Source of the DNA: Chromera velia
Taxonomy: Eukaryota
Length of the DNA stretch: 64,000 nt
Direction: 5' to 3'
Assembly (NCBI GenBank): GCA_018398765.1
Contig: JAHBMJ010000101.1
Coordinates: 62,001-126,000 of the forward strand
The notes beneath the pieces were generated by a model. It did no database searches and was not told the DNA's origin. It saw only the letters and a program-made list of their open reading frames with translations. The stretch's first letter is position 1. Every line of letters starts with the position of its first letter. Below are positions 1,900 through 57,998 of this stretch, piece by piece. The position numbers were made by a program, and so were the translations under genes.

Positions 1900-3420
1900 A
1901 CTTTCTTGTAAAATGACTTAGAAAGTCGCCAACCTAGCATTCGCTTAAATTGCTTTCTAAATTTTTACTAATTTTTCTAGTTAAATTTGCTTCTCAATTC
2001 AATGTACTGCTGATGCATACATACAAATACTCCCCCCAGATATCATGTATACATAGCATAGACACATAGTGATAAGTTTTCACAGTTGATTTGATTTGAT
2101 GTCTAGGAGTGATTTGTATACATATTTATTTTTTTTTGTCCTATCTAGTTTATTTTTTGTCTTTATTAACCTCTCTTTATTAACTCAGTGTCTACTGCTA
2201 GCTAGGCGTATCACAGAAAAAAAAGAGTAAAAAACTGTAGGTATAAAAAAGAATAATTTAATAATTATAAGATTAAGTATTTATTTCTTTTTTTTCATTT
2301 TTTTTGTGCAACACCTAAGCAATAGTTGTTTATCACCTAAGATTGTTAGCCAAAAAAAGGGTGAGAATTAGCTTTATTAATTTATATTTATTTATTCTTT
2401 TGTTGCGTGCCGCTGTATTGCGTCTCGCATGGACCTTGCGTTGGTCTCGGCATATCCGTCCTGGCTGTCCCGTTCGTGCTTATACGGGCGGGGGCCACGG
2501 CATCTATTTCCATTTGTGGAGGTGAAATGTATCCATTTATTCCTCTCTGGCCTCATAAAGCGGTCTGTTTCCTCTAGCCTGAACTGACAGTCTATGGACT
2601 CGGGTGCACCTATATTAATATTCTCTGTACGTTTATAGCAACCGCTTACTCCCTGTATACAACATCTTTTGTTATGATATAGGTTTAGATCTCTAGACTG
2701 CCAGGTCCACGGTATAGCCACAGTAACTTCAACTTAGTTTTTCAGTAGGTTTTTGACTTAAACGTATAAATTAAATACATTCTCCGGTAAACCTCCGCAA
2801 TGTCCTCATCGTACGCCATCGCTAACCATCGCGAGCATGGCCATATATTTCATAACAGATAAACGTAGGGGGAAAACCTAGTGCAAGACGAATCAATCAA
2901 TCAATCGACCCGTAAATGGGGGTCTAACGTTTGGTGTGCGACAGTGTTCTAGGGCACCAATAAATCACTTATCACTACTTATCACTGATTGGTAAGTCAT
3001 ACAACTAGACTTTCTACTAAGTTTCTAGCTAGCTTTCTAGATGTATACATATTATATTATATAACCTAGCTATAATCAAACGTACTATGTCCTAGATTAT
3101 GTCACGTATATACGATATTATCTAGGATGTAATATAAAACAATTTTCAGCTTTTCGCCTCCACAGAAGTTTTGAGTCCCCCCCTAGGTCCCCCCCCCTCT
3201 GTTCCAGACTCATGCATTCCAATACATTCCCGGAGAATTTCCCGTCCCTAGTCCCGTCCCTTAAATCCCGTCCCATAGATGCAACCTCTACCTTCAAGGC
3301 CTAGTTCAAGGCATTAATTTTAGCTTATTCTCAATTCGTGTGTGTTACTTTTCACTTGTGTCTTCTCACTGGCACATAGAATTACTTGCCGAAGAGCCAC
3401 TCAGTGGGTGAGTGAGACAG
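1900..3420. other. AT/TpA-rich intergenic block, probably decayed repeats
   Basis: Abundant CTAG/TATA/TAG words (e.g. 3001-3130), no credible ORF, small CCCGTCCC x3 repeat at 3241-3275. Confidence 0.6.
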
Positions 3421-3708: not shown

Positions 3709-6471
3709 TCAGAGAAGACCGAACCATTTTGGCCTCTCCTTCATCTCAGGTACGTGTTTGTTCTTCACCAGGTCTGCCGCCGTGTCCTCCACGGTCTTTC
3801 CGAACTCTGTGTACTCGAGCCCCAGCACCTCCTTCGATCGAGAGTTGTCCAGACGGACTTGCCTGCAGTGGTGCATGGGACCGATCGACGAAAAGAGTAC
3901 GTCGCACAGGCGTTGAAGTAACAGGACACATACCCGGTAATTGCTCACCTGGAGCAAGACAAAACGCTGTCTGCCATATACTCTCTCCTCTCTTTCGACG
4001 AACTCGACAGAAACTTTCGTGATTCACACAAACACGACGGAGACTCCACTAGCTAGGCATACGCAAAAAGGCAGGAGTAGAAAATGTAGACGCGATAGTA
4101 ATGTGCTACTGAACGTACAGGCATAGACAAGTGCCACGTCGAGACGGACCGACCGACCTGTTGAGTGAGAGGAAGACGAATGTTCTCTCTGCTGCCGGCT
4201 GCGTGAAGTAGGTGACGATTTTGACAAGAGGTGAGGGGGCGACCTGAGTGGCGATCGGGTGGAATGGGTATTTCTCCTTCAGTTTCATTGCCACCTCCTT
4301 CCAAGAGTAGACACCCTCACAGATCAGAAACCTGAAGGGGAGATAGGCGTACGAGATGAATGTGCTGTTTTCAAGCAGAGGAAACAAAAGGAAAAACATA
4401 AACGAACCAATTGAAGTAATAGAGACAGTGACATCAGCAGATACTCTCGTGGTGTGAAAACTTCAAATGCAGTCCGGCACGATATGCAACACACGGCCGG
4501 GCACGCAGTCAGGCTGAGAGCGAGGAGGGCTGGCCTCAAGCAAGGAGACAAGCGGGTAGACAGACAACCGCCTCAAGCAAGGAGACAAGCGGGTAGACAG
4601 ACAGCCGCCTCAAGCAAGGAGACAAGCGGGTAGACAGACAGCCTCAAGCAAGGAGACAAGCGGGTAGACAGACAACCGCCTCAAGCAAGGAGACAAGCGG
4701 GTAGACAGACAGCCGCCTCAAGCAAGGAGACAAGCGGGTAGACAGACAGCCGCCTCAAGCAAGGAGACAAGCGGGTAGACAGACCGCCGCCCCAAGCAAG
4801 GAGACAAGCGGGTAGACAGACAGCCGCCTCAAGCAAGGAGACAAGCGGGTAGACAGACAGCCAGATAAGGAAGGAGACAAGCGGGTAGACAGACAGCCGC
4901 CTCAAACAAGGAGACAAGCGGGTAGACAGACAGCCAGATAAGCAAGGAGACAAGTGGGTAGACAGACAGCCAGATAAGGAAGGCATGTAGACAAGCACTC
5001 AGATAGGTAGGCCGGCAGGCAGACACACCGACAGAAAGACAGGAAGTGAGTCAGAAAGACACTCAGGCACGCAGCAAGGCTTGACTAAAGGCGAGCACGC
5101 AGACACAGAAAACGAGTTGCAGTGAGGCAGACGGTTTTGCTGCACGGACTCTTTTTTCTTTTTCCCTTGCGCCTCTTGCCGACATGCATCATCGTCCTCC
5201 GTTCTATTCTCTCTCGTGTCAGTCCGCGCATTCAGTCTGCTCTGTTTCTGTCTACCTCTCTCAATTCCCATCTCCTTCATTCATCCCCCCACCTCCAAAG
5301 TGATGACGCGCTGATGACGTTTCGCATATTCTTTCTATCTTTAGGCGTGTGTGTGTATGTAGATGTGCATGCATTAATGAGCGCACGGACGTGTATGTGG
5401 GAGGGGGTGGTGGTGTCAATTGGCATACGTGTAAACATGTGTTGGTACCACTTTTTGCGTTCCTCTTCTTCTCACCTGCCGGTAACGTCCTTTTCCATCG
5501 CCATCACGTGTGCAGCCGCGACATCTCGAACGTCACAGGTGCCGAGACGAATTGGGGGCAGAGCGGGGTCCTGCCCCTTCATGATGCGCCTGCATGGAGT
5601 CATGCAACGGTGCAATCAATGATGCATCAGCCGCTGCTTCCGTCTCCTGTCTTGCCGCAGACTGAACAGAAGAGCAAACGAACAAGAAAAAAAAGACACG
5701 CCGGCTGGGTGCTTTCTGCTTTCTTTTCTCCCTCTTCACCCTCCCATCCCTTTTGTTTGGTTTGTTCGAAAGAGTCCTTCCCTCCTTCCTTCACTGACTG
5801 ACGGACGTACTCGATAAAGGCAACAGATTGGTTGATGTCCCCCCTCAGAGAAGGTCCCAACACAGCGAATGGGTTGATGACTGCGAGTTCGAACGGCTTC
5901 CCTTCCCTCTCCACAAACGCGTGTGCCTCCTTTTCTGCGAGCGTCTTTGAGTAGTAGTAAGGGGACCTGGTCAGGGAGGAGCGGTCGTTCCAGTGGGACT
6001 CGTCGTAGACCGTGTCTGCATGCGCATTGCAATTTAATCAATGCCTTTACTTTCATACAGAATTCTTTTTCAGGCACGGACTCCTCGTAGACCGTGTCTG
6101 CATGCGCAGGCATTGATTGCAATTCTTTTAATCAATGCAGCAGCACCGTAATCAGTCAAAGGGCCACATTGTGACCAATCAGTAGTCAGGCAACAAAGAA
6201 ACCAAAATAGCCACACGCAGAAGAAAAGAGTCAGTTGCACTTATGATCTCTGAACGACGAACGCATACAGATGCTCCCTCCTCTCTCCCCCTCTCCCTCT
6301 CTCTCTTTCTGTCTTCCTCACAAACACAGACAACAGAAAATTCCACACAGAAGTCACCAAGGGCACAAAACTCGAGCAGGGGGGATACGAGAAAAGAAAG
6401 AAGAATCAACGTGGCTGCAGAGACATTCATACACACACACGCACGCACGCACATACACGCACACGCACGCA

Positions 6472-6541
<70 letters not shown>

Positions 6542-6619
6542 CAGAGAGAGAGAGAGAGAATGAATGGATGGATGAATGAATGAATGAGTGAATGAATGAA
6601 TGAATGAATGAATGAATGA

Positions 6620-6651
<32 letters not shown>

Positions 6652-6732
6652 AAAAAAAAAAAAAGAAAAAGAAAGAAAGAAAGAAAAGAAAGACAGAAAG
6701 AAAGAAAGAAAGAAAGAAAGAGAAGGAAGGAA

Positions 6733-6774
<42 letters not shown>

Positions 6775-8028
6775 AAAGAAAGAAAAGAAAAAAAGAAAGA
6801 AAGAAAGAAAGAAAGACAGAAAGAACGAGTGAATGAATGAATGAATGAATGAATGAATGAATGAAACAGAAAGAACGAGAGGGAGAGATGGAGAGAAAGA
6901 AAACTCAATACCTAACTGACCGTCATCGAACTCGTCGGCGATGGCAGCCACCGACGAGGTCTGAATGACTTTCTTCACGCAACCGGCCTCTTTGGCGGCC
7001 TTGAAGACGAACTTCACGCCATTCACTGCGGGGTCCACTAGGTCCTTCTGGGGATCGTTCACCTGCATGCATGCACAGGTTGGTTCTTTTTCCTTCGGTC
7101 TGCGTGCTGCTCTAGTAACTAGCTTGTCTTCGCGCGGTGTTCTGTTCGGGAAAGGCGGACACAGAGAAGTTGAAAAGGGTTCAGCACGTCGAAAAGCCTG
7201 CCGCCATCTCTCCTCACTTTCTCTTCCATTCACGGATTGTGTGAATGTGGACGTTTGCGTATGTGTGTGTTTGTATGTGGAGGGTGAACGAGCACGAGCT
7301 GTGTTCGCATGAAGCCCTTTCCGATAGACAGATAGGCAGATAGAGAGAGACTGAGTGCACGTATGCACTTTCTCAGGCTCACCTGAAGGATGTACGGAGA
7401 CGCTGTGTGCATGACGACTTCACACCCCGTGCAGGCCTCTAGCCAGCCCTCTTCACTGTTCAGATTTCCCTTCACCAACTCCAAATTCTTGTCTGCCCCC
7501 GGGAGGGACGTCAGGTGGTCCACAGACTTCGCATTCTGCACGAGAAACGAAGGAGACATAGACGGAGATGCGAACAGCCAGAGAGAGACAAAGAAGCAAA
7601 CTGAGAGAAAACTAGCTGAGAAGGCATACTTTCAAGGAGGTAGACGGGGGACCAAGATTTCCAGAGAGACACACAGGAAGCAAGACCACCACAGACACAC
7701 ATGAATGGACAGGAAGGCGGTCTGAAGGGAAGCAGTAAGGTAGTGAGCGCCTGCTTCAGAGATAAGTACAGGATTTCCAATGGGACTCGGTGGAAGGAAA
7801 GCGCTGGCTTTGACTGGAGAGAGAGCTAGTCAACTGCCTTCTCCAACCTAGAAAAAGAGAAAACTCCGTGGTAGGTAGTCAGGGTTTGGGGATAAGCGAA
7901 AATCCGTGCAAACAGACCTGAGGATCTCTAACTGTCCCTCTGACTTTGTAGCCCTTCTCCAACAGCTGCTGTACAATGTGGGCGGCAATGAAGCCCGTCG
8001 CCCCTGTCACCAACACTGTTTTCGTCAT
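3709..8028 (-). CDS. NAD(P)-dependent epimerase/dehydratase family protein (extended SDR; DFR/cinnamoyl-CoA reductase/aldehyde reductase-like), 7 exons
   Basis: Exons 8028-7918, 7535-7383, 7062-6921, 6015-5811, 5589-5476, 4331-4158 and 3862-3709 join in frame across GT-AG introns. Motifs: [15 protein letters not shown] (Rossmann fold), HTASP, TSSVAAI, catalytic YYYSK (YxxxK), [29 protein letters not shown]. Confidence 0.93.
4533..4984. repeat. Intronic minisatellite, ~37-bp unit (CCTCAAGCAAGGAGACAAGCGGGTAGACAGACAGCCG), ~12 copies
   Basis: Direct head-to-tail repeats, e.g. units starting at 4571 and 4608, degenerating toward 4980. Confidence 0.95.
6430..6900. repeat. Compound microsatellite (CA)n-(GA)n-(GAAT)n-(GAAA)n in an intron
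   Basis: Seen directly. Similar compound SSRs occur in most introns of the window. Confidence 0.95.
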
Positions 8029-8816
8029 TCTGGACTTTCGAGTTGGGGTCGGAACTGCAGCGAGCGCAGTTCAGTGGAGCCAGACAGGAAGGATACAGCA
8101 AGAGCTAGAAGGTCCGTCTCGCACCTCCAGAATATCAGACTTGAATCAATCTTATGGGTGATGTGAGGGGGCTTGAGGACAGGTGAGACCGTCTACAATT
8201 CGCAGCACCATGCAATCGATGGTGCAGATGTCAAGCACGCTGTCTTCAATGTCTGCCGTCGGTGATACGATTCGATCATTACGATTCTGAGTCAGCGCAT
8301 GCATGTGAGACTCTACTCGAATCATACTCGAATCTCGGGCACCCTGATCTGACGCACGCAAGCGTGCGAACGGCCCCGGAAAGCCCTATAGCCTATAGAA
8401 TGTACAAAGGTTTGTGTGAGACTGCATGTGAGTCCCGCGAGGACTCGCGGTGTATATTATTCATATTGTAATGTCCCTACGGGACATGCCGTGGCCCCCA
8501 GGGGTGAGATGGGGTGAGAGCACTGAGAGGTGCGTCCATGATCGTGGTACATGCATACAACAGGTTCCCCTTCCCATATTAATACATATTAATATATGGT
8601 GCATGACAAAACCCTCAATCACGGTTGTTGGCTGCGCAAAGGCGTAGCCGAGGTATCTGTAAATGCCGTAGAGGGCCGGAGACGGCTGGACGGGTTTTAA
8701 GATGGTTGAGAAGAAGAAATAAGAAGAGCTTTGCTATTAGATACGTTTGCTAATAAAAAAATTAATGACGTACAAGGACTTCGCTAACACACGGTGTTAA
8801 CGTGAATAAACGTGAA

Positions 8817-9048
8817 ACCTCCCTGAACCTAAGTGCTACTTGAAAAAATATAATCAAGATCATCTCTATTTGCGGCATCTTTTTTCAAGAGACCATCCAC
8901 GCTTGCGGCGTAGACGGTCAAGACACCATCCAGATATGCGGCTTTGGCTTTCAAGACACCATAAATAATCCGCACTTGCGGCACGGACTTTCAAGCTTAT
9001 TCAAAAATGCGGCCTGAACTATCAAGTGGTAGTTACGTTCAGGGAGGT
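8817..9048. mobile_element. MITE (non-autonomous DNA transposon) with 27-bp TIRs and an 8-10 bp TSD
   Basis: Left TIR ACCTCCCTGAACCTAAGTGCTACTTGA (8817-8843) versus reverse complement of the right end ACCTCCCTGAACGTAACTACCACTTGA (9022-9048), 23/27 identical. AAACGTGAA flanks both sides (8808-8816 and 9050-9058). Confidence 0.85.
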
Positions 9049-9589
9049 CAAACGTGAAAGAGAAAATGAAATTGTAACCGCAGCAATACATTACTGATAA
9101 ATCTTTAACAACTTATTTTTGCTTATTAAAAAAAAAAATCACAGTGCTCCCTGCTTACATCTACTTACATTTTTATTTTTTATTTATGGAGTTAATATAT
9201 AGGTCTTTTATATACAGACACACATGCTGTAATGTTTCTTTCATTTACTTTTATTTATATTTTGGTCATTCTAGTAGTAGCATAGTAGTATATGTAGTAG
9301 CCAAACATTATATACGCCTTCTATTATCAACTTGCTCTTTTAAATTATCTAGCTATAACTGAGACTGTGAGCTAGTCTATAAAATGTTTGAACACAATGT
9401 TATACAAGTCCCAAACTATGCGCTTGCTATGCTTGCTGTATTAGTTGTTGTAGTTAATTGTGCTCACTTACTCACTCACCAACACACTTAGTCACTGACT
9501 AGGTCACTGACTCACTAAGTCATTCTTGCTTTTTTCACTAATTCACTCACTCATTGTCTTACTTATTCACTCACTTACTCCCTCATTTT

Positions 9590-11060
9590 CCTTGTCTCTC
9601 TTCGATCACTCACCCACATGCCCAAAGTTAACGGCTTCCATTAACACTCTCACATCCATATGCCTAAACGGCTTTTATTCATACACTCGCTCTCTCCGTC
9701 TCTCTTTGTTTATTTCTATTTACTCACAGGCCCTAGCGGCTTAAAGTTCTATTTATACACTGAGTTTCATTCTCTCTTAGTGACAGGCTGTCTCTATTCA
9801 TTCAGGTACCCACACGCCCATGCAAATATCTTCTGCTGACATGCTTGTGCGAGTCCTTGTCCCTCTTCATTCACCCACACGCCCAACCAGCTCCTGTTCA
9901 CCTAGCCTGTTCACACCAGTTCACACACTCGCTTTCCCTATCTATGTTCATGCACCTATACCGTCGTGATGCCCCAAACGGCTTCTGTTTACACACTCGC
10001 TCTCTATGTCTCTCTTCATTATTCTTCATTGATTCATTGCATGAGGCCTAAGCGGCTTCTGTTCACATACTCGCTCTCCTTGTATCTCTTTGTCTCTCTC
10101 CATTCACCCATACGCCCAAACGGCTTCTGTCCACACACTCACTCTCCCTGTCTGAGACTCTCCTAATTTATCAGCAGGCCCAAGCGGCTTCTGTTCATAC
10201 ACTTGATATCTCTTCATTCATCCACAGGCCTAGCCATAAGCCCGAGCGGCTTTTGTTTAATGACATACAATTGATCCCTCTTCATTCATCTATGGGCCCA
10301 AACGGCTCCTGTTCCTAGCTTTTGTTCACATACTCATTCTCCTTGTCTCTCTTTCTTTGCCTGTACACCTAACCAGCTTTTGTTCACATACTCACTCTCC
10401 TTGTATCTCCTTGTCTCCTTTTATTCACCCACACGCCCAAGTGGCTTCTGTTTATACACTCACTCTCCTTGTATCTCCTTGTCTTCCTTCATTCACCCAC
10501 ATACCCAAGCGGCTTCCGTTCACACACTCGTTCTCTTTGTATCTCTTTGTCTTCCTTTATTCACCCACATGCCCAAACGGCTTCTGTTCACACGCTCGTT
10601 CTCCCTGTCTCTCTTCACTCATCCATAGGCCCAAGCGGCTTCTGTATATTTCTGTTCACACACTTGATCTCTCTTCATTCATCCACAGGCCTAACCAGTA
10701 GCCCAAGCGGCTTTTCTTCAATAACACACAATTGATCTCTCTTCATTCATCTACGAGCCTAAGCGGCTTTTGTTCACACACTCATTCTCCTTGTCTCGCC
10801 CACATGCCTAAACGGCTTCTGTTCACAAACTCATACATACTCATAAACATGCTCGTTCTCTCCGTCTCCCTTCATTCATCCACCTGCAGGCCTAAGCGGA
10901 TTCTGTTATTGCACATACTTCCTTTCTATACTCCTCTTTCTCCATGCACCCGCACGCCCAAACATTCACCCACATGCCCAAACGGCTTCTGTTCACACAC
11001 TTGCTTACCTAGCTTTATCCACAGGCCCAAACGGCTTCTGTTCACATCTCTCCCTCTTGA
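9590..11060. repeat. Degenerate tandem/satellite array built from CCCAAACGGCTTCTGTTCACAC(AC)TC...TTCATTCACCCAC units of variable length (roughly 40-65 bp)
   Basis: The core CC(C/T)AA(A/G)CGGCTT(C/T)TGTT(C/T)A recurs about twenty times. Confidence 0.85.
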
Positions 11061-11280
11061 ACTCACCAAGCGCTGGACCTATATGTGGTGAGCCTCTCCA
11101 CAACATTTCAAAGCGAATAGTACAGCATCCACAGCGATACACACTATATATAGACAGTATTTTGTGTCTCAAATCCTCAAGTGGAGGTAAAAGGAAGTCG
11201 AAAAACTAGGTGCTGAAGAACGACAAGAGGGGCCAAGTAGAGAGAAAGAAGACGAGTAAAAAGAGATTCCTGCAGATCAA

Positions 11281-12390
11281 ATTAACCGTTTTTCCTCTTT
11301 GTCCAGTATACTCAGTCGTAGTGCGGCTTACTCCTGACTCTGTAAGGCGGCATGTCTTAACTTGCCACTGAGCTTGGTAGCATAGTCAAACAACAGAACA
11401 ATTTAGAACAGCTTCACTTAGATGGTATACTTTATCGCCTTCCTTGAAAACTATATAGATGATCAAATCTATGTACAATTTCCCTCCATATGTGTTTTTG
11501 CATATGTACTGATACATCAAGGTTAGACAAAAGGTGCATGTTCGCCATATACGCGCTGTACATGCAATTGCCGGAAAATGCGGGTCCCGAAAGGCAAATA
11601 TAACCCGATTTATTGGTAATTCGACTTTTTTTTTTCCATAGGTGCGGCTAATTAATCGTTTTTCCTCTTTGTTAAGCGCACTCAGTCGTGGTGCGGCTTA
11701 CTCCTAACTCTGTAAGGCGGCATGTCTTAACTTGCCACTGAGCTTGGTAGCATAGTCAAACAACGGAGAAATTCAGAACAGCTTCACTTAGACGGTGTGC
11801 TTTATCGCCTTCCTTGAAAACTACACAGATGATCGAATCTATGTACAATTTCCCTCCATATGTGTTTTTGCATATGTACCGATACATCAAGGTTAGACAA
11901 AAGGTGTATGTTCGCCATGCACGTGCTGTACATGCAATTACCGGAAAGTGCGGGTCCCGAAAGGCAAATATAACCCGATTTATTGGTAATTCGACTTTTT
12001 TTTTTCCATAGGTGCGGCTAATTAATCGTTTTTCCTCTTTGTTAAGCGCACTCAGTCGTGGTGCGGCTTACTCCTGACTCTGTAAGGCGGCATGTCTTAA
12101 CTTGCCACTAAGCTTGGTAGCATAGTCAAACAACGGAGAAATTCAGAACAGCTTCACTTAGACGGTATGCTTTATCGCCTTCCTTGAAAACTACACAGAT
12201 GATCGAATCTACGTACAATTCCCCTCCATGTGTGTTTTTGCATATGTACCGATACATCAAGGTTAGACAAAAGGTGTATGTTCGCCATGCACGCGCTGTA
12301 CATGCAGTTGCCGGAAAGCGCGGGTCCCGAAAGGCAAATGTAACCCGATTTATTGGTAATTCGACTTTTTTTTTTCCATAGGTGCGGCTA
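11281..12390. repeat. Three tandem copies of a 370-bp unit (11281-11650, 11651-12020, 12021-12390)
   Basis: Colinear with no indels; 32 variable positions by manual alignment. Confidence 0.97.
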
Positions 12391-12400
12391 AGGGCCTTAA

Positions 12401-12427
12401 CAGATACCATGGCCGGGGGCCACGGCA
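12401..12427 (+). promoter_or_regulatory. Copy of dispersed element CAGATACCATGGCC-GGGGGCCACGGCA, ~255 bp upstream of the SF3A3 ATG
   Basis: The same 13-14-mer occurs at 2490-2503 (+), 8486-8499 (-) and 60958-60971 (-). A regulatory role is inference only. Confidence 0.4.
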
Positions 12428-12680
12428 AAGTTTTGCATGCACCACTGAAATTCGAGCTTGATCGATCATTTTCTGAGATCTTGTGAGGCCAGTCGTCCTC
12501 TCTCTCTCTCCACACACACACACACACATACTGATGCCAGCGTAATTGATTCCCTCACGTACCAGCTTCAATCACAAAACTGCGCCCATCTTTCGGCCCA
12601 ATTACACACACCACATGCTCGAGAACCTTCTTTGAGTTGAATACTTGACTTGACGGAGAAGGAAACGACAGAGAGGGAGG

Positions 12681-15132
12681 ATGTCTGGGACTGTGCTGGA
12701 GTCCTTGAGGGGCTCCCACGAGGACATCGAGTCTATCGAGAAGGCCATCGCACGAATCCTGACAGAGAGGGCAGAGAACACAAGGAAAGTCGGAAGGGTT
12801 GCGTATGACCATGCGATTGCCTACCTGCTGAAGATGGCCGTCTCCAAAGCCCAAACAGTAAGTCAGCACACGCAGAAAGGGAAAGGGGAACCGCACAAGC
12901 TTTTACACCACCCTCATGCATGCCACAAAAAGGATGGATGCGCACCTGTGTGAGCGTTCGGAAAGCATTCAATCTGTGAAGTGCCTTTTCTTTCATGACA
13001 TCGAAAAAGACTCGGAAGCAGATAGAAAAATTTTGGAATTTCCGGTTAATTTCTCAACTCTTCCTGCGTCTTCTTCCCCCCAATTTCCTCTTGAGCTATA
13101 CCCGTCTTTTATTGTCTTGCCTCCCATTCTGGTTGTCTACAGTGTCTCGACATCTACGCAGACGGGGATGGTGCGAGACGGGAGGAATTGGCGTTTTTGA
13201 TGGGGAGACGGCCGAAGGGTCCCGACAGTGTGTGGGCGAATTTCTACGACCAGCTGAAGACCGTGAGAGACTACCACAGAAAGTTCGCAGAGCAGAATGC
13301 ATTTCCAGAGACCAGAGACGCGCAGTACTTCCTCACCATGGCCTACACAGGGGGCGCATCTGCCACAGAGGACGGCCTTCTGACTGCACCCAAACTTTTG
13401 CAGGGGCCTGTGTCGAAGGCGTTCTCCCCTCAGGAGGACATGGGCAAGAGGGTGGACATGCAGGGGCTGTATAGTGTGTTTTCGAATATGAAGAAGTACA
13501 GGCAGTATCGAGAGACCCAATGGAAGCAGGCGGAGGTTGCCCGTATTCGAAAGAAGTGGAGAGAGAAGAAGCAGCAGAGGGAAGAGAAGGAGAGAGAGGA
13601 GAAGGAGAAAAAGATGTTGGAGGATGATGCTCCAATGCTAGAGGAAGAGGAGAACGATCGAAGAAACGGGGTAAACGGAACGTCCCACTCGCATGCAGAT
13701 GAAGAGGAAGAGATGGTAAGAAAGAAAAGAAGGGAAGCCCTCTGGCAGGCAGAAGAGGATGAGGAGATCGCGAAGGTGGCTTTCAGAGAGATTGACCACG
13801 TCACTTGGCTGAAGGAATTCGATCGGTCAGTCTGTTCCTCAGCTGCCTCAGAGAAATCTCTGAGCTTTTGACTTACTCTCATCTGTATGCGCTTTTTCAT
13901 TTGTTGTCTTTTACTTCGAAAGAGTGCTTTCCTCTTGAAAGTGGACGGGAGAGACCATACGACGGGGGAGCAATGAAAAGTCCGAAACAAAGGAAGAAAA
14001 AAACACTTCTTTTTGCTTGCCCCTTTTGCCATTGTTTGGGTGTTCTGCTGTCCGATTGGTTCACCCACCCGCAGAGTCGTGCTTGAAGGAAGTTCTCTGC
14101 AGAGATCCCTCCCCCTGTTTCTCTTCTCTCCCCCTTTTGTGCCAGCCAACCAACCAACCAACCAACCCTTTTTGGTGGCAGGCAGTCTTCCTGTCTTCCT
14201 GTACTCACACGCGAACTGCCCCCCCCGCTAGCTGCAGGTTCCACGAGGTGCCGCGGCACTGCAAGTACAGAGACGGGGACTACGAAGCATACGTGAGGGC
14301 CCTGGGGGAGTACTTGCAAGGATTCTTCCAGCGGCTCTTTCCTTTAGCAGACGGCAGGAAGGCAGAAGAGCAGTTGAAGGCGGATTTCGAGAAGAGGTGG
14401 GGGGAGAGAACCATCGCGGGGTGGGAACAGCTGACGAGGGAGATGCCTCTCTACTGCTTTCCCTCAGACCATCTGTTTGCGTCTGCACAGGTCCTCAAGG
14501 GACATACGGAGGTCAGGCACCCCCTCTGCCTCCCCCCCTCTGTGTGTGTGTGTGCGTGTGTGTGATGATTCGTATGCCTGTCTTCCTGTCTGTGCATGTG
14601 AAACGAGGTCTTCTCTCGTGACGCTCCCACAGCGAATTCACTTTCTTTGTCAGCTCTTGTCTTTTTTTTCTTTCTTTCTTTTTCTTTCTTCTGCATGCAA
14701 TGACGGCAGGAGAAGGACAACTGTCTGGATCCTCTGCTTACGGAGAAACAGGAGCGGGAAAGAAAGCTGGGAAGGCCAACAAATCTTTGAGCAGAAATTC
14801 CGTCTGTTGCATGTCTGACTGTCTCTTTGTATGGAGCGTAGACCGGGTCTTTTCGTGCGTTACAATCCCGTCTGAAATAGCGTGCGTCAGTGTGCGTAAC
14901 ACTTTCCGAGCTAAATCGGAGAAGCGAAGGGCCCGGAAAGCGAAAAATGAAGGCTAGTGAAGACGCGATATGACGCAGTCTGTTTTGTTTAGGTGTCCAC
15001 CAGCTTCGCTTTCCCGGGCCCGGGAAACTGCACGAACGCAATGAACTCCGCTCGCAAAATGCGCGAACCAACCAAGTGACTTGTCTGAAAGAATGAAAGA
15101 AAGAATGAATGAAAGAATGAAAGAATGAATGA

Positions 15133-15172
<40 letters not shown>

Positions 15173-16006
15173 AATTGTTTGTTGCAAGCAAGTTGCCTGC
15201 CTGCAGGGAAAGAAATTCAAGAAAAACCAGGAGTTGATGGCCGCCCGGTCGATGGGGGAGCAGGACAAGCGGAGGGAGGAGAGCCTCCAGGCAGACAAGA
15301 AGACTGCATTCTTGGAGGCAGTCGTCCAGAAGTACAAGGACTTCCTCGGAGAGACCATACAGGTTGGTAGTTTCCTTCCTTCCTTCCTTCCTTCCTTCCT
15401 TGTTTCCGTACATGCATCTGATTCCCTGCGTGTCCGAGGAGGAGTGTGTAGAGTGGGGGGGGGTTGCTGTGTCTGGAGTCTCGGGCGGGGGAGTGAAAGG
15501 GAGAGAGTCTGAGGAGGAAAGAGCGTACACGACAAAGACATATCATCGTCGGAAAGAGCGGACAGGAAAAGGACATGTCGGTTGTGCCAACAGATTGCTT
15601 AGACGTCTCCCTTAGCGTGAGAGCAGACATAGCGCACAACGAGAGGCAGTCGCAGCGGCTGTCGAAGCATGAGTGAATAACCGTGTGTGTGTGTGTGTGT
15701 GTGCGTGTGTGTGTGTGTGTGCAGGACACGGTGAACTTCATCCAGAAGAGACAGTCGATGACGCTGCAGGAGTTGGAGGCGGCGATCGAAGAAGAAGGTG
15801 AGAGGGAGTGTGTGGATGGGACAGGAAAGAGGGGAGAACGAAGGAAATGAGTTCGTTAGGGGAAACCTGGTGGAGGGAGACACCCGAGCTGAAAGGGAAG
15901 GCGATTGCGTGTCTCCATACAAATGGGTGGATGAATGAAGGACTGAAAGCATCAGTTGATACACACACACACACACACACACACTCACACACAGAGAGGG
16001 AGAGAG

Positions 16007-16041
<35 letters not shown>

Positions 16042-16868
16042 AACATATACCCGAGGTCAGTCAGGAGAGCTGTATGAGGGTAAGGTGAAAAAAGACCAAA
16101 GAGGGTGGGTGACTCCACGTCTTTCTTTTCATTTGCTTTCCTCAGTGCTGCTATGCTGCCTACCGTGCATGCATATGTTCTTGTCTTGTACTCTGCTGCT
16201 GTTTGATTTGATGGAAGAGAGACCTCATTTGTTCGCCTGCTCCTGCTCTCTTTTCTGTGTGTCTGTGTCTTTTGTTGCCTGCCTCTCAGAGGAGGGGGGA
16301 GAGGACGCGCCCGTTGAGGGGGTCGAGGGAGAAGAGGAGGAGGAGGTGGGGGACGACGATGACGACAAACCCGTTTTCAATCCTCTGAACTTACCTATCG
16401 GTCAGTTGGGTGAATGAATCGAGAGGCGAGCATTCCTTTGTTCACGCATTTCACATATCACTGCGTCTGTCCGTCTGCTCCTTTTTCCTCCTTCCCTTTC
16501 TCTCTGTCTCATTTTCCTTCTTCATTTCTTGTATCATTTTTCTGCCTGTCAGTCTGCCTGTAGGTGCAGTTCTGTCTCGCATTTGTGGAATTGCTTCCTC
16601 GCTCTCTCTCTCTCTCTTTTCTCTCTCTCCGTCGTCTCCTCAGTTGACCCCACCTCCCGCACGCTCATTCATTCATTCATTGTGCGTATGCGAAATTTCT
16701 GATTCCCTGGGACCTTTCCGCTCTGGTTTGTGCTGATCATTGATATCTGTGCATGCACAAGCTTTCGACCTAAGAGACGTACATCGATCGCTTCAGGATA
16801 GGAAAGCATTCTCTCTTCATGCACAGCCACTCTCACGATTCGAATGAGAATTTGTGTGTGTATGTTCC

Positions 16869-16901
<33 letters not shown>

Positions 16902-17793
16902 GTGACTGTCTGTCTGTCTGTCTGTCCGTCTGTCTGTCTGTGTGTCTGTCTGTCTGTCTGTGTGTCTGTTGCAGGATGGGACGGGAGGCCGATGCCGTTC
17001 TGGCTGTACAAGCTGAATGGTCTCGGTCAGGAGTTCAAATGCGAGATCTGCGGGAACTATTCTTATTGGGGGAGGAAAAATTTCGAGCGGCACTTTCAAG
17101 AGTGGAGACACGCGTACGGAATGAAGTGCATCCGCATCCCCAACACTGCACACTTCAAGGTCAGACCCAGACCAGACAGCTGAGATGAGATTCAAACAGG
17201 TGTCTGCCGCTTTTGTGCAAAAATCAAGGCTTGACTGGCTCTCTGACTGTTCCGTTGCTTTCTCCTTGCCTTTCCCCGTGATCCTCGGCGTTGCCTCCTC
17301 CGTCGTCTCCTCTGCGGAGTTTGTCCATCCATCTTTTCCTCAATCTCTTTCTCGTCACTGTGCGTTGAGTCTTGTGTTTGTTCTTTCTGGTTCGTTCTTC
17401 GTCTGTCTGTCTGTCTGTCTGTCTGCCACATTTGAGATCCCGATTGATGCCCGCATGATCTGTTCAAAGCGCAATGCCACCTTTCCTTTCCCCCTCTCCC
17501 ACCGTTTTTTAAGTCACCGCCACTCGGGGTCCGTGCGTGCGTGCGTCAGACTGAAAGAAACTAATTCCCTTAATTTCTTTCTGCATCCATTTATCGATTG
17601 ATTGATCGATGTATCGATCAACACATCTATCTGCAGGAAATAACAAAAATCGAGGACGCGATCAACCTCTACGAAAAACTCCAGAAGGAGGCAGAAAACA
17701 CGGTCAGTAGGACTGTCAGAAAGCTGGTCAGTTTGTCGACTTCTTTTTGTGCTTTTCTCTCTGTCTCTTCCTTTCTCTATCCATCTCTATCAA

Positions 17794-17890
<97 letters not shown>

Positions 17891-17932
17891 GCATGACTTC
17901 TCTTTTTTCTTTTACCATTCAAAGAGATACAC

Positions 17933-17989
<57 letters not shown>

Positions 17990-18349
17990 ATAGAAGGGTC
18001 CGTCCGTCTGCATTTTTGCTTTTTTACCTTTCATTCCAAAAGGAAAAAGGAGGGAGGGAGAAAGAACGCAATGAATGAATGAAATTCCAGCTAGAGCCTG
18101 TGTCTCTGTTGTCCGTTCTTCGCCTCTCTACTGAACTTTCCCGTCCTGGTCCTTCCCTCCCGTCCTCTCTGCTTCCTTCGTTGATGGATCCGCTGATCGA
18201 GGCACTCTCTGTGTCTCTGTCTCCTTCTCCGCTTTCTTGTCTGCCTGCAGGCGTTCCGCCCAGAGCAGGAGATCGAGTGCGAGGACTCAGACGGCAACGT
18301 CATGTCTCTCAGGGCCTTCGAAGACCTCAAGAGACAGGGCCTCATCTAG
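12681..18349 (+). CDS. SF3A3: Splicing factor 3A subunit 3 (SF3a60/Prp9), 9 exons
   Basis: Exons 12681-12857, 13143-13825, 14238-14511, 15207-15362, 15725-15797, 16290-16400, 16975-17159, 17637-17702 and 18251-18349 join in frame. Hallmarks: [70 protein letters not shown], zinc finger CEICGN...[12 protein letters not shown]-terminus ECEDSDGNV...EDLKRQGLI. Confidence 0.97.
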
Positions 18350-19255
18350 GAGGGGTGCAGCATGGGTGTTCTCGAGAATATTCTTCGATCTGATGCAATA
18401 TTCTCAATGGGATGGGATGAGCCTGGCAAGGACTCATGGGGAATTCGGGCTGGTTAGGAGGTCTCGTGCCGTCACCTAGGTTGTCACAGAAATGCGGTGG
18501 GTGGATCTGGGGGCAGCAGGCTAGGCAGCAGGGCGGCCCGTTCGTCGTCATCATTAAAGAAACTTACACGCTGCCGCGAAGCAAGTGTAATGTGCGGCAG
18601 GTGGCTAGGACTAGGCCAGGAAGTTCGAGATGACACTTTAGAACATTCCGAAGTTCCCGAGTTCCGACGTGACTAGCGACGCAGACCATAGAACAGGTAT
18701 GAGAACAGGCACACACTGAGGATGTCACTCGTTGGCTGACTATAATAAACATGATTCACAGACGTTTAATACTCTACTAAAAATACGTATTGTAAATAGA
18801 TCTTAATATCTTGTTATGATCTATATGAAGTGCAGTTTAGGATAGGATAGGATTTATGTTTCGGGTCACCCCGTGGTCCACTGCCGGGCCTCGACTGCTA
18901 AAGTATTGTATGCAGACTCATGATGATATAAATTCATATAATATCACTCAGTGCATGTCGGGCATTCGGCCAAGTATTCGGCACTGCCAGTGGGGCGGCA
19001 TAAATCCACTCCATACAGACATTAATCCTATTAAATTCTAAGTCACTCATGAAACTCCTATATTAGGCCCTAATCTACTTAAAATAATTTATGAAAAAAA
19101 TTCAAAAAAACTGTATAGATGAAAGATTTGTCAGCAGACTCGCCTGCGAGGAATTAAATAGAGGTTGTCGGTTTTCTGAAGCTGTTTCCACATGCTATAT
19201 AGGATATCAACGTTCGGAGGCCAACGTTAGGCCGATTGCCCGTGCACTACGGGGG

Positions 19256-53959: not shown

Positions 53960-55440
53960 CACAGTAGCTTAAAGTGGACTCAAGCGCAAAAACGGAATCT
54001 AAAAGAGACTCCCGAAAAGTCCGGAGCCCTTAAGATCATAAGGGAGAAATCTTAGTTAGAGAAATGCTGGAAAGCCTGGAATATAAGCGGCGCGATTCAC
54101 TACCAAGCAATTTACCTTAGTAGCAGTTTACCATAAACGGTCTACTACGTATACCAGATGTTCGCTTAATTGCACTTATTAAAATCTTAGCTAAAATCAG
54201 GGATAAATCAGAGTTCGTTAAGATTGATATGACGCGTGCAAACAATTTAGGAGACAATATAAAAACTTAGACTTCGCCGTAACGCCGTTGATCACACCAC
54301 CATATATAGTACCATTGAATCTGATATTGAGAGATTGATTGATTGGTTGATTAATTACTACTAATTTACTAGATTAACTCAATGACTAATTAATCTAGTA
54401 CTTAATTAATTGATTGTTTCAATTTGATTGATTTATTGATTTATTCCGTCCTAGGGGCCACAGCCTGCATGCCCGGTATATTATTACTCATATTGCAATG
54501 ATGATCCCTTGTAAAGGTTGTTGCTAGGTTTGCTGCCTAGGTTGCCGCTCGTATAATTGAGTCGTATTTGTTCCGACTCGTATAGAATATTTGCATAGGC
54601 CCTTGCACACTAGCTTTACACCTATCATCATCGTGCGCTATATGATATCGCTATCGCGGATCGGCCCTTCGATTGGGCCACAAATAAAGCGTGTATCGTT
54701 AGATGGCAAGACGCGAGCTCCTGCGACAGTTAGGACTAGTTAGATATTAAATTTTAAGACTCAAATTAAGAGCAATCTAGATCAAAAACAGTCCACATTT
54801 TTTATGCTTTGCGTCTTTTAAAAAGTTGACTATCTTTGATACAGGATATACATCTAAATATACATTTTCTACTAGATTTTCCATGGCCGTTTAGGCTAGC
54901 CGCTGGCCCAAACCGTAGTAGTCTAGGTAGTAGTTAGGGTAGTAGTAGCTCTCTGGGCCTCTGGCGCTAGTTTTAGCGCCACAGTATGCTGTCACTAGAT
55001 GTACAGGCTGTAACAGTACAGCTTAAGACAGCGTAAATCGCTTCTAGGCAATGTAATAGGCACTAGTCTACCGCTAGAGTAGGCGTCAGTTTAAAAAAAA
55101 TAAGTATAGAAACCGTAAAACCTTTTACCTAGCTAGCCTTTTACTTTCTTTTTTTTTTGTCACTTATAAAGTCAAACACTAGCTTTGTCAAACAAGTGTT
55201 GTTGTTTAAGTGTTGCATAAGTTTTTTTTATATGTTGTGTAGCATTGTAGCTGTTAATTAAGTGTTGTGCCGATTAAAAGGGTAAATTAAAAATTAGAAA
55301 TTAAAAAAAAATAAAAAGTCTCATCAGATTGGTTTTTTTTTTTTTTCTTTAGACAACGCCTATAGAATCACTTCTAAGTTCAAGTTTAAATTTATTAGAT
55401 TTAACTTGATCATTTAAGTTTAAGAATAGATTTACGTATT
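53960..55440. other. AT/TpA-rich intergenic block, probably decayed repeats
   Basis: Dense TAG/CTAG/TAA words (e.g. 54910-54950 GTAGTAGTCTAGGTAGTAGTTAGGGTAGTAGTAG). No ORF of 60 aa or more in any frame over ~1.5 kb. Confidence 0.65.
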
Positions 55441-55493
55441 CTGTTTTACACAGCTTCCATGAGCGCCCACTCCTACTCCTGATGCCAAAACGG

Positions 55494-57998
55494 CTAAAAA
55501 AGCGACTCACTAATCAACTTGCATAGTTTTCTCTCCGCGAGTCCAAGGTTACATGCCTCATGCACCGAAAATTGGAAGGCTTCTTTTTTTTCCTTCCCTT
55601 CATACGTCTTCTGCTCCCCGATGTTTAGCCGTCTGAGATTGGGAAGCGACGAAGGGTGGAGAGCATCAAAGAATGCAGATGCTCCTTCAATGCCAATCCG
55701 ATTGTCAGAAAGAGACACAGACCAAAGCTCTGAAAAATTGGAGGCCCCAAACACTCCTCCAAGCGCCCTCATGCCTTCATCGTCGATATTGGAGTCAATG
55801 AATGACAATTCTCTGAGGTGAGGGAGCTTCCCTGCTGCGAGCGTTCGAAGCGCCCCCGCGTCCAGTCTGCCTTTGTTGAGAAAGAGAGACTTCAAACCGG
55901 GTAGCCCGCTCTCACTCTGAGTGATTCCACTCAATAACGGACCCCCGTAGACACGGCGCCCCCCTTCTTCAAGGCACAAGCACAGATGAAAAAGACGAGA
56001 AGGGAACCTCCCTGCCCTTATACCCTCTCCAAGGGCCAACAGGCCCTCGTCTCCAGCACGATACAGGACAGGGGAGTCAGAAGGAATTTCAGAGCGAACT
56101 TGGTAAAAGTCTATGATGCTGCGTGTCGTCTCTACGGCAACCGCTCGCTTTTGACAAGAATCGACACTCTGCAGTGAAATGAGCTTGCCAGAAACGAGAA
56201 CAGGAATGACAGACTTTCCAGCCCCAGCAGCTGCCTCTGACGGGAAATGGAGCCACCGAAGCTTTGGAAGACCGTCAGCACGCTCGGCAACGGCAGACAT
56301 GAAATCTTCCCCCGCCCCTTTTCCAACGTTCTCGTTGCGAGACAATCGCAAAAAGGCTGAACCAACCAACGCCCCCGTCCTAACTGCCGCTGCAAGACCG
56401 CTCACCCCTTCATCGGTGAGACCAGATTCCGTCAGGTTGATCTCTGACAATTTAGGCAGCTTCCCTGCCTCAAGAGCCCCCCCCAGCACCCCGGCTCCCT
56501 CTCCCGCTCTCGTCCTGGCCAGATTCAGCACCTCCAGAGAGGGCAGACCCTCTTGGCCCTCCATGAGAGCCCCCATCAGGGTCCCCATCCCTTCCCCTGT
56601 CATCCCCCGGTTGTCCTGCAGGGTCAGATTCTGCAGACCAGTGAGGCGACCAGCCCTGACTGAATCTGCCAGGAGAGCAATCTCTGCATCGGTCAAATGC
56701 ATTCGCAAGTCTAAATGGCACAGAAGAGGGAGATTTGTGTGTACAACGGCAGGGAGGAATACAGCCTTCTCATGGTCAGATAGCTGTGTCTCGATGACCT
56801 GGCCCTTTGCCTTGATTACTAACTTGTTGACTGCCCGACACCGTCCCTTAAGGACACTTTCTGTCAGCAGCCTCAGAGCCTCATTACCCACTTCCTCCAA
56901 CACCCATTCAAGAAACTGCAAACCTAGTCTCTCAAATTGGAGGGATTCAGAGGTTTTCATGAGTGCACCAAAAAATGTACCTGCACGGCTACCTTCTCTA
57001 GAAAAGAAAAGATTCAGCTGCCGGATGGCCGGATATTTGCCGTTCACAAGGGCTCGGAGCCTCTCTTCGTCGACGGTGCCTGCGTACAGCGAGAGGTCGA
57101 CACGCATGGAGGGGGGCCGTTCTGCTGTTGTGAGTGAGTCTAAAAAGACTGCCATATTTTGCGGAGACTCATGCAAAGACGAGAAACAAAGCAGCCGGAA
57201 GGCGGGGACCGATTGAATGCGGAGAGCCCCCCCCAATGAAGTCAACCCTTTCCCCCAACGAGCACCAGGCCAGTTCACCAGATCGTCATCTAGTGCCAGA
57301 GTTTCTAGACAACCGAGGTCCCCTTTTTCCATTCTCGCTGCAATTCGTTCCATCCCCTTCCCCGCAATACGGCAATTTCTCAGAAAAATCTCGCGCGCAC
57401 AGGGCAGAGATGCGGTGCAGAGGACCGGGCAGAGAACAGCTATGCCCGAATCCCCGAAATGGTTCTCTGACAGGTTCAGGGTCTCCACTCTCAGAGGGGT
57501 CTCTGCGATGGCTGTGCACAGGGGTTTTAGGCACTCCTCATCTAACTCGGTGTTCTCGAGGTCCAGACTCTTCAGACCCGACGCCTTCCCCAACATGATC
57601 ACCTCTGCCAGAGCCTCAATCCCCCCAGCCCTCAGGGAGTTGCCTGCATGAAGACCCCAAAAAAGCAAATTAATTTTCTTCTTCATCAGCCTGCAGGGGC
57701 TTCTCTCTCACCCGTCACTCCCTGGCTTGCTGGCCCTGGCTGTCTGGCTGCTTTTCTGCCCTACTGGGTAGGCGAAACTATGCTATTGCGAAATTGATAC
57801 TGCGTTATCTTGTGTTTTGTGCACCAAAGCCCATTTTTGTCTCACTGATTCTTGGGGGCCCTGAATGCTGGCGCGAAGAGAAAGTGGGACTGACTGGGCT
57901 GACCTCGCAGACAGAGAACCTTCACCAGGGGAAGCAGAAGAGGAAAGACTGGAGGAGCTTCAAGAGGGCTGATGGACTCCTCTGCAGATGTACACACA

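What the first reader, a model, noticed from the sequence alone, without database searches (positions are those of the whole stretch)
11281..12430. Mutation load falls stepwise toward the SF3A3 promoter (23, 12 and 5 T/A alleles in copies 1, 2 and 3)
Seen: of the 30 transition sites, the T/A allele is present at 23 in the distal copy, 12 in the middle copy and 5 in the copy next to the GGGGGCCACGGCA element and the SF3A3 5' region. Inference: the mutagenic process depends on position, for example a chromatin domain whose edge lies near 12.4 kb with promoter-proximal DNA protected.
Basis: partly seen in the sequence, partly recalled or inferred. Interest (0 to 1): 0.7.

Follow-up and report, generated by a model that had tools for sequence, protein, structure and literature searches.

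The report
Hybrid middle repeat mimics mutation gradient
The three repeats lie inside the end of a high-copy, transposon-like element of the alga Chromera velia whose copies lose C to T mostly at CpA and CpG sites (likely through DNA methylation), and the apparent three-step fall toward the gene largely comes from a middle copy that is likely a recombinant of its two neighbours, leaving one real gap between the outer copies that copy age, or possibly closeness to the promoter, would explain.

Summary
The counts hold: 30 transition sites, T/A in 23, 12 and 5. The DNA is Chromera velia. GGGGGCCACGGCA is the end of a high-copy dispersed repeat, not a gene-specific promoter element. Against the family majority, 30 of 30 transitions are C>T/G>A losses, enriched at CpA/CpG (p=0.001). 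The middle step is not independent: 9 of copy 2's 12 derived alleles are shared with a neighbour (6 with copy 1, all in the right half; 3 with copy 3; P=4e-5 under independent mutation). By half-unit the load runs 13, 10, 3, 9, 4, 1, which is not monotonic. Copy 2 is likely an unequal-exchange hybrid. The copy 1 versus copy 3 gap (23 vs 5, p=0.0009) is real. A younger donor copy (favoured, about 0.55) and promoter-side protection (about 0.33) fit equally by likelihood. The by-product, two-strand CpA+CpG decay of a Chromera repeat family, did not turn up in my paper searches. It is not filed as RIP: no single-strand clusters, no CpA-over-CpG preference.

The parts
11280..11649 (+). Copy 1 of the 370-bp unit; 23 derived C>T/G>A changes (13 in unit positions 1-190, 10 in 191-370) plus one private transversion (position 25)
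11650..12019 (+). Copy 2, a mosaic: shares derived alleles with copy 3 at unit positions 7, 24, 258 (and transversion 120) and with copy 1 at 193, 202, 211, 288, 300, 321; only 3 private changes (57, 275, 291)
12020..12389 (+). Copy 3, close to the family majority; 5 derived transitions (7, 24, 91, 148, 258) plus transversion 120
11650..11651 (+). Head-to-tail junction with a 2-bp AA microhomology (same junction at 12020-12021)
   Evidence: sequence; depth 87.9 just past the junction in run X1, about 2.0 times the median single-contig depth of 43
12390..12427 (+). Terminal 38 bp of the dispersed repeat, ending in GGGGGCCACGGCA (12415-12427); no family-majority difference among the rows shown
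   Evidence: depth falls from thousands to 0 past here; 15 contigs (X1) and 13 (X2) run into unlike flanks behind 12427, agreement 0.39
11043..11279 (+). Inner sequence of the same repeat family upstream of copy 1; 11-12 derived C>T/G>A changes in 237 bp, the same load as copy 1
   Evidence: Fisher p=0.47-0.60 vs copy 1
9626..11047 (+). Degenerate approximately 68-bp satellite inside the element; its right edge is also multi-copy
   Evidence: depth 11,973 in bin 11043-11063
8487..8499 (-). Exact inverted copy of the 13-bp terminal motif; possible left end of a 3,941-bp element (inferred; no target-site duplication found)
12681..18346 (+). SF3A3 (SF3a60) coding span, 607-aa Chromera velia protein, 9 tblastn pieces

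Best explanation
The three units are the inner end of one copy of a high-copy Chromera velia repeat that stops at GGGGGCCACGGCA, all 30 transition differences are C>T or G>A losses from the family majority, mostly at CpA and CpG and likely from deamination of methylated cytosine, and the 23/12/5 series likely records copy history rather than distance to the promoter. Likely sequence of events: (1) an older copy sat here and took about 5-6% C>T/G>A (upstream part and copy 1). (2) A second unit plus terminus, near-identical to the family master, was likely joined behind it through a 2-bp microhomology, copied from a younger family member during break repair or template switching. (3) Unequal exchange or patchy conversion between these two units likely made copy 2, with copy-3 ancestry on the left and copy-1 ancestry in two right-hand patches. 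(4) All three then kept decaying slowly. Shown: counts, polarity, context, element end, allele sharing. Inferred: methylation, the younger donor, the exchange event.
For: Polarity: with copy 1 as reference, the family majority differs at A>G 16 and T>C 19 of 39 places in X1, with the same 16 and 19 in X2 and X3. With copy 3 as reference, 54 of 71 variable places in X1 are C>T or G>A. Context: 25 of 96 CpA/CpG sites hit vs 5 of 75 CpC/CpT (p=0.001). The family variants shown give 26 of 85 vs 8 of 69 (p=0.006; only the 34 C>T/G>A rows displayed, 43 rows hidden). Sharing: 3 of copy 2's 12 derived alleles are private against 9.5 expected (P=4e-5). Of copy 1's derived alleles, 0 of 13 in the left half and 6 of 10 in the right half are shared with copy 2 (permutation p=0.008). 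Four of those six are rare in the family (1-6% in X1; the others 10% and 26%), so parallel mutation is unlikely. Half-unit loads are 13, 10, 3, 9, 4, 1. Upstream load equals copy 1's, a plateau. At most one derived allele is shared by all three copies (one T>C row of X1 is hidden). The family holds both master-like and over-10%-diverged contigs (X1 against copy 3: 129/148/117/37 at 99+, 95-99, 90-95, under 90%), and a 117-bp X3 contig identical to the end of copy 3 plus terminus has depth 109. On the patch reading, changes after copy 2 formed are 0.83, 0.81 and 0.80 per 100 bp for copies 1, 2 and 3. C. velia is listed with 5 DNA_methylase genes and Vitrella with 0 (PMC5890265 supplementary file 3).
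Against: Likelihood cannot separate a younger donor from a position-dependent rate: lnL -11.55 vs -11.9 (patch reading) and -13.4 vs -12.0 to -12.2 (single-switch reading, which leans to position, though it omits the cost of a parallel change at 258). On the single-switch reading copy 1 kept mutating about twice as fast after copy 2 formed (2.2 vs 1.1 and 1.05 per 100 bp, P=0.21). Load keeps falling inside copy 3 toward the gene (4 of 190 bp, 1 of 180, 0 of 38; small counts, not tested). No donor copy was identified, because no whole genome is held. Site 148 is ambiguous (family only about 54-66% G). Family states come from contigs that drop rare variants, and summed depth is no copy number. 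No methylation data were seen.
Confidence: 0.55

Rival explanations
1. Promoter-side protection. A local tandem duplication soon after insertion gave two identical units. The unit 290-660 bp from the SF3A3 start codon sat outside or at the edge of a methylated or silent domain and mutated 3-6 times more slowly than the distal unit. Unequal exchange later made the hybrid copy 2.
For: 23 vs 5, p=0.0009. Best fit on the single-switch reading (lnL -12.0 to -12.2 vs -13.4). Load declines within copy 3 and the terminus (4, 1, 0). CpG observed/expected is near 1 at both ends of the element (8501-9000, 11501-12500) and 0.35-0.64 in the middle (confounded by the master sequence). In Zymoseptoria, TE copies near genes show weaker RIP (PMC9970103, passages).
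Against: It needs the duplication before any mutation (at most one allele shared by all three). Rates after copy 2 formed are equal on the patch reading. Upstream load is a plateau, not a rise. C>T counts in 20 satellite cores show no significant trend with position (rho -0.28, p=0.23). The 37-bp array at 4533-4971 has too few such changes to test.
Confidence: 0.33
2. Assembly mosaic: copy 2, or the array, was built by the assembler from reads of copies 1 and 3 and of other family members.
For: The reference is a fragmented shotgun assembly (5,953 scaffolds; PMC4501334 passage) and the family is high-copy. No contig spans the array. The copy 2/3 allele at unit position 120 is not seen in X1-X3 contigs. 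At least two of copy 2's three private alleles also occur in the family (12076, 12294 equivalents).
Against: X1 holds the junction at depth 87.9, 2.0 times single-contig depth, as two junctions predict (overlapping contigs from one junction could also give this). Copy-1-specific alleles appear at about one-copy depth in X1 at 11307 and 11481. Contigs drop rare variants, so a missing allele shows nothing.
Confidence: 0.1
3. Three independent copies mutated at three position-set rates (the finding as written).
For: The monotonic totals 23/12/5.
Against: 9 of 12 copy-2 alleles are shared (P=4e-5), there is a shared transversion, sharing is clustered (p=0.008), and half-unit loads are not monotonic.
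Confidence: 0.02

Closest known systems
Hybrid repeat units made by unequal crossing-over or gene conversion in tandem arrays (textbook mechanism; recalled, no paper read)
   Same: A middle unit whose left part comes from the downstream unit and right part from the upstream unit, as unequal exchange in a two-unit array predicts.
   Different: One tract (231-271, including shared site 258) reverts to copy-3 ancestry, so an extra conversion patch or one parallel change is needed.
Fungal repeat-induced point mutation (RIP; PMC7296669 and PMC9970103, passages read)
   Same: C>T/G>A only, in repeated DNA, CpA heavily hit; TpA/ApT is raised in repeat-like islands (0.90-1.28 vs 0.42-0.49 in genes).
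   Different: CpG is hit as often as CpA (9 of 42 vs 16 of 54, p=0.48). Both strands are interleaved with no single-strand runs (20 runs vs 17.9 expected). Low load, non-fungal host, no link to sex or RID shown.
Deamination of 5-methylcytosine in methylated transposons (plants, animals, diatoms; general knowledge, plus PMC9998398 passages)
   Same: Slow two-strand C>T decay of transposon copies, CpG included; the host is listed with 5 DNA_methylase genes (PMC5890265 supplement).
   Different: CpA is hit at least as often as CpG; no methylome for Chromera found in my searches.
Non-autonomous class II (cut-and-paste) elements, 6.3 Mb in C. velia (PMC4501334 supplementary file 11)
   Same: High copy number, sharp terminus with varied flanks, a 13-bp motif in inverted orientation 3.9 kb away, subterminal repeats, no long reading frame.
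   Different: No target-site duplication for the 8487/12427 pair; superfamily not determined; left end not tested.
TpA hypermutation of integrated viral DNA in Bigelowiella natans (bioRxiv 10.64898/2026.01.13.699255, abstract read)
   Same: A context-specific, region-biased transition process in a SAR alga.
   Different: Opposite direction (T/A to C/G at TpA); here the polarity is C/G to T/A.

Membership tests
Fungal RIP | Changes are C>T / G>A transitions | tested here: met
   30 of 30 transitions polarised C>T/G>A against the family majority; site 148 only weakly
Fungal RIP | Confined to or near duplicated DNA | tested here: inconclusive
   All scored changes are in a repeat; the only control is composition (TpA/ApT 0.97 in the element vs 0.42-0.49 in genes), which coding constraint also shapes
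Fungal RIP | CpA preferred over other contexts, including CpG | tested here: not met
   CpA 16 of 54, CpG 9 of 42, p=0.48; CpA+CpG together exceed CpC+CpT, p=0.001
Fungal RIP | Clusters of one type on one strand per round | tested here: not met
   34 derived sites of the old lineage: 18 C>T, 16 G>A, 20 runs vs 17.9 expected, P(<=)=0.81; several rounds could hide clusters
Fungal RIP | Premeiotic, RID/DIM-2 dependent | not testable with these tools
   No genome held; no cross data
5mC-deamination decay of methylated transposons | C>T excess at CpG on both strands | tested here: met
   9 of 42 CpG hit vs 5 of 75 CpC/CpT; 11 C>T and 12 G>A in copy 1
5mC-deamination decay of methylated transposons | 5mC present on the element; DNMTs encoded | not testable with these tools
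   No methylome seen; 5 DNA_methylase genes listed for C. velia in PMC5890265 supplementary file 3, class and activity not given
Non-autonomous terminal-inverted-repeat DNA transposon | Dispersed, high copy, sharp end with varied flanks | tested here: met
   431 contigs laid in X1 and 290 in X2; 15 and 13 run into unlike flanks behind 12427
Non-autonomous terminal-inverted-repeat DNA transposon | Inverted repeat at both ends of one element | tested here: inconclusive
Non-autonomous terminal-inverted-repeat DNA transposon | Target-site duplication | tested here: not met
   No exact 2-10 bp duplication around 8487 and 12427; so described as transposon-like, not filed in a superfamily
Non-autonomous terminal-inverted-repeat DNA transposon | No transposase | tested here: inconclusive
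   Longest stop-free frame in the element is 145 aa; 3 of 21 such frames scanned, no Pfam hit; an intron-split or decayed gene is not excluded
Hybrid unit from unequal exchange or conversion | Middle unit shares derived alleles with both neighbours, in blocks | tested here: met
   6 shared with copy 1 (right half), 3 transitions + 1 transversion with copy 3; P=4e-5 and permutation p=0.008; site 258 breaks a single switch

The most novel reading that the evidence does not exclude
Chromera velia, a photosynthetic relative of apicomplexan parasites, runs a methyltransferase-based, RIP-like defence that erodes repeats at both CpA and CpG, and this defence stops at a sharp chromatin edge about 0.7-1 kb from an essential gene's start, so one transposon copy records a 3-6-fold mutation-rate boundary.
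Probability: 0.2. Interest if true: 0.75.

Novelty: new variant of a known kind. Interest (0 to 1): 0.4.

Why it matters
As a gradient the finding shrinks: it shows that counts in tandem copies are not independent readings of local mutation rate. What remains is a well-polarised record of CpA+CpG C>T decay across a high-copy repeat family in Chromera velia. That species is rich in transposons (about 30 Mb) and listed with 5 DNA_methylase genes; Vitrella has about 1.5 Mb and is listed with none. If methylation drives this decay, it points to an undescribed non-CG-inclusive transposon defence in the free-living sister group of apicomplexans. This family also offers many natural reporters for testing promoter-side protection.

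Tried and rejected
No whole genome is held, so other family copies could not be aligned full length or placed relative to genes. Pattern scans found no outside copies: metagenome contigs 0 and 0, viral contigs 0. Runs X2, X3 and X6 gave no cover just past the array junction, and none of the four runs covered the unique flank beyond 12436; a hole in contigs proves nothing. No RNA holder listed. Rfam over 8300-12700 gave one sub-threshold chance-level hit. Polarity test in other arrays: the 37-bp array has too few C>T changes, and 20 satellite cores show no significant trend; the other short arrays were not examined. Target-site duplication search was negative. Reverse polarity (T>C mutator as in Bigelowiella) was rejected because the family majority is C/G. 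Hotspot parallelism for the six shared sites was rejected. The motif as a gene-specific promoter element was rejected. Paper searches with no paper on Chromera repeat mutation or methylation, judged by title and start of abstract: Chromera + repeat-induced point mutation 0; Chromera + methyltransferase + 5mC 0 (24); Chromera velia + DNA methylation + transposable elements 4 (21); Chromera + DNMT 7 listed (27); Chromera velia + methylation + nanopore 7 listed (54); Chromera + cytosine methylation 3 listed (58); two loose searches, 20 listed each. The library lacks most subscription papers. PMC9998398: Chromera absent from the main text and from 12 of 23 supplements searched; the 11 unsearched files may hold a DNMT classification. 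One RIP review was not held.

Full report
Observation. Tandem Repeats Finder gives a 370-bp period, 3.0 copies, at 11280-12391. The three units align without gaps and differ at 32 columns, 30 transitions and 2 transversions. Pairwise differences are 25 (1-2), 28 (1-3) and 11 (2-3). The downstream gene is SF3A3: Pfam SF3a60_bindingd, 100% identical to a 607-aa protein named for Chromera velia, with its start at 12681. Copy 3 lies 292-661 bp and copy 1 1,032-1,401 bp before that codon. The transcription start is unknown.

The motif is an element end. GGGGGCCACGGCA occurs 4 times exactly and once with one mismatch in the window, once in inverted orientation at 8487-8499. Laying public contigs on 12021-12480 placed 431 contigs from run X1 and 290 from X2, with summed depth in the thousands against about 43 for single X1 contigs. 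Depth ends after 12427, and 15 and 13 contigs continue there into unlike flanks. The 237 bp before copy 1 are equally multi-copy, and family contigs run from the unit end straight into the terminus (loose ends at 11651). So family members commonly run upstream sequence, one unit, then a 38-bp terminus, and the array looks like a local triplication inside one copy. I found no target-site duplication for the 8487/12427 pair and no frame longer than 145 aa, so I call it transposon-like without naming a superfamily. C. velia has 6.3 Mb annotated as non-autonomous class II DNA (PMC4501334, supplementary file 11 read whole).

Polarity and spectrum. With copy 1 as reference, X1 differs in at least 30% of depth at 39 places: A>G 16, T>C 19, C>T 2, C>A 1, G>C 1. 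X2 and X3 give the same 16 and 19. All 23 T/A alleles of copy 1 are among the displayed rows. Positions 7, 24 and 258 are not among X1's two C>T rows, so the family is C there and copies 2 and 3 share a derived T. With copy 3 as reference, the displayed rows show the majority differing only at 12110, 12139, 12167 and 12277, and 54 of 71 variable places in X1 are C>T or G>A (43 rows hidden). Thus 30 of 30 transitions are losses of C/G (site 148 weakly, family about 54-66% G). Hits fall on 16 of 54 CpA, 9 of 42 CpG, 3 of 41 CpT and 2 of 34 CpC sites (CpA+CpG vs the rest p=0.001; CpA vs CpG p=0.48). The 34 displayed family C>T/G>A rows agree (26 of 85 vs 8 of 69, p=0.006). Both strands are interleaved without runs. 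Repeat-like islands of the window have TpA/ApT 0.90-1.28, genes 0.42-0.49. Slow deamination of methylated cytosine is the likeliest cause (inference). C. velia is listed with 5 DNA_methylase genes and Vitrella with none (PMC5890265, two rows of supplementary file 3; the main text does not name Chromera).

The middle step is inherited. Of copy 2's 12 derived transitions, 6 are shared with copy 1 (193, 202, 211, 288, 300, 321), 3 with copy 3 (7, 24, 258; plus transversion 120) and 3 are private. Independent mutation with the same totals and context weights gives 9.5 private on average, and 3 or fewer in 4e-5 of 200,000 simulations. Sharing with copy 1 is 0 of 13 in the left half and 6 of 10 in the right (exact permutation over breakpoints p=0.008). 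Four of the six shared alleles occur at 1-6% in the family. Loads by half-unit toward the gene are 13, 10, 3, 9, 4, 1: the half nearer the gene in copy 2 carries three times the load of the half before it (p=0.08 alone). A unit with a copy-3 left part and a copy-1 right part is what unequal exchange in a two-unit array yields (established mechanism, recalled). Either one switch near position 190 plus a parallel change at 258, or an extra copy-3 patch over 231-271, fits.

The outer gap is real but unresolved. Copy 1 (23) and copy 3 (5) differ (p=0.0009). They share one derived allele (148, common in the family), and the three copies share at most one. The upstream 237 bp carry 11-12 changes, the same rate as copy 1. 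Two models remain: copy 3 plus terminus came from a younger family member, or a very early local duplication was followed by slower decay on the gene side. After copy 2 formed, rates were 0.83, 0.81 and 0.80 per 100 bp on the patch reading, but 2.2, 1.1 and 1.05 on the single-switch reading (P=0.21). Maximum likelihoods differ by at most 1.4 units, in opposite directions for the two readings. I favour history (0.55) because the lineages share essentially nothing derived, master-like copies are common, and the patch reading needs no parallel change. Protection keeps 0.33: load also falls inside copy 3 (4, 1, then 0 in the terminus), and weaker RIP near genes is described in a fungus (PMC9970103, passages). 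The satellite cores give no significant trend. A weakly scored NAD-dependent epimerase-like gene on the minus strand at about 5600-7630 likely starts near the element's other end, so that end would be the natural second test.

Artefact check. No contig spans the array. X1 has depth 87.9 just past the junction, 2.0 times its median single-contig depth, which fits two junctions but does not prove them. X1 may not be independent of the assembly. I leave 0.10 for an assembly mosaic.

Comparison. It works like RIP in direction and in hitting CpA (RIP features from PMC7296669 passages), but fails two RIP tests here (CpA over CpG; one-strand clusters), so it is not filed as RIP. It is the opposite of the TpA mutator of Bigelowiella (bioRxiv 10.64898/2026.01.13.699255, abstract and outline only; lead from scan note e1-7691421; its supplements are closed). 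Eight searches on Chromera or alveolate repeat mutation and methylation showed no report of this by title or start of abstract; subscription papers and 11 unsearched supplements of PMC9998398 may bear on this. The scan had no note on this genome or sequence.

Verdict. Counts confirmed; three-step gradient and promoter motif not supported; two-copy gap real with cause open; CpA+CpG decay of a Chromera repeat family is the more interesting by-product. Interest 0.40.

Noticed in passing
window 2490-2502 (+), 60959-60971 (-), 62269-62281 (-, one mismatch): Further copies of the 13-bp terminal motif with unrelated inner sequence; the 60959 copy also shares a 14-bp subterminal word with the 12427 end. 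Likely several families moved by one transposase.
   Followed up: partly
window 1940-3400, 18480-19250, 54000-55450, 60959-63300: AT-richer islands with TpA/ApT 0.90-1.28 against 0.42-0.49 in genes, as expected of other decayed repeats.
   Followed up: partly
window 8810-8843 and 9022-9055: 34-bp inverted arms (79% complementary) around diverged 33-bp repeats; possibly a small nested element.
   Followed up: no
window 12389-12427 (family contigs): One contig each in X1 and X2, at about single-copy depth, carries the terminal segment twice in tandem, so the end itself gets duplicated in this family (table 5c).
   Followed up: no
window 5600-7630 (-): Weak Pfam hits (Epimerase, NAD_binding) suggest an NAD-dependent epimerase-like gene pointing away from SF3A3, so the element likely lies between two gene 5' ends.
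   Followed up: partly
window 4533-4971: 37-bp minisatellite, about 12 copies, with variant units grouped at the right end and few C>T changes.
   Followed up: partly
window 55494-57707 (-): A 737-aa stop-free frame that looks leucine-rich-repeat-like by eye; not scanned.
   Followed up: no
window 11043-12427 (run X6): A marine sediment metagenome run holds the same repeat family (13 and 14 contigs laid) with the same C>T/G>A-dominated variation.
   Followed up: partly
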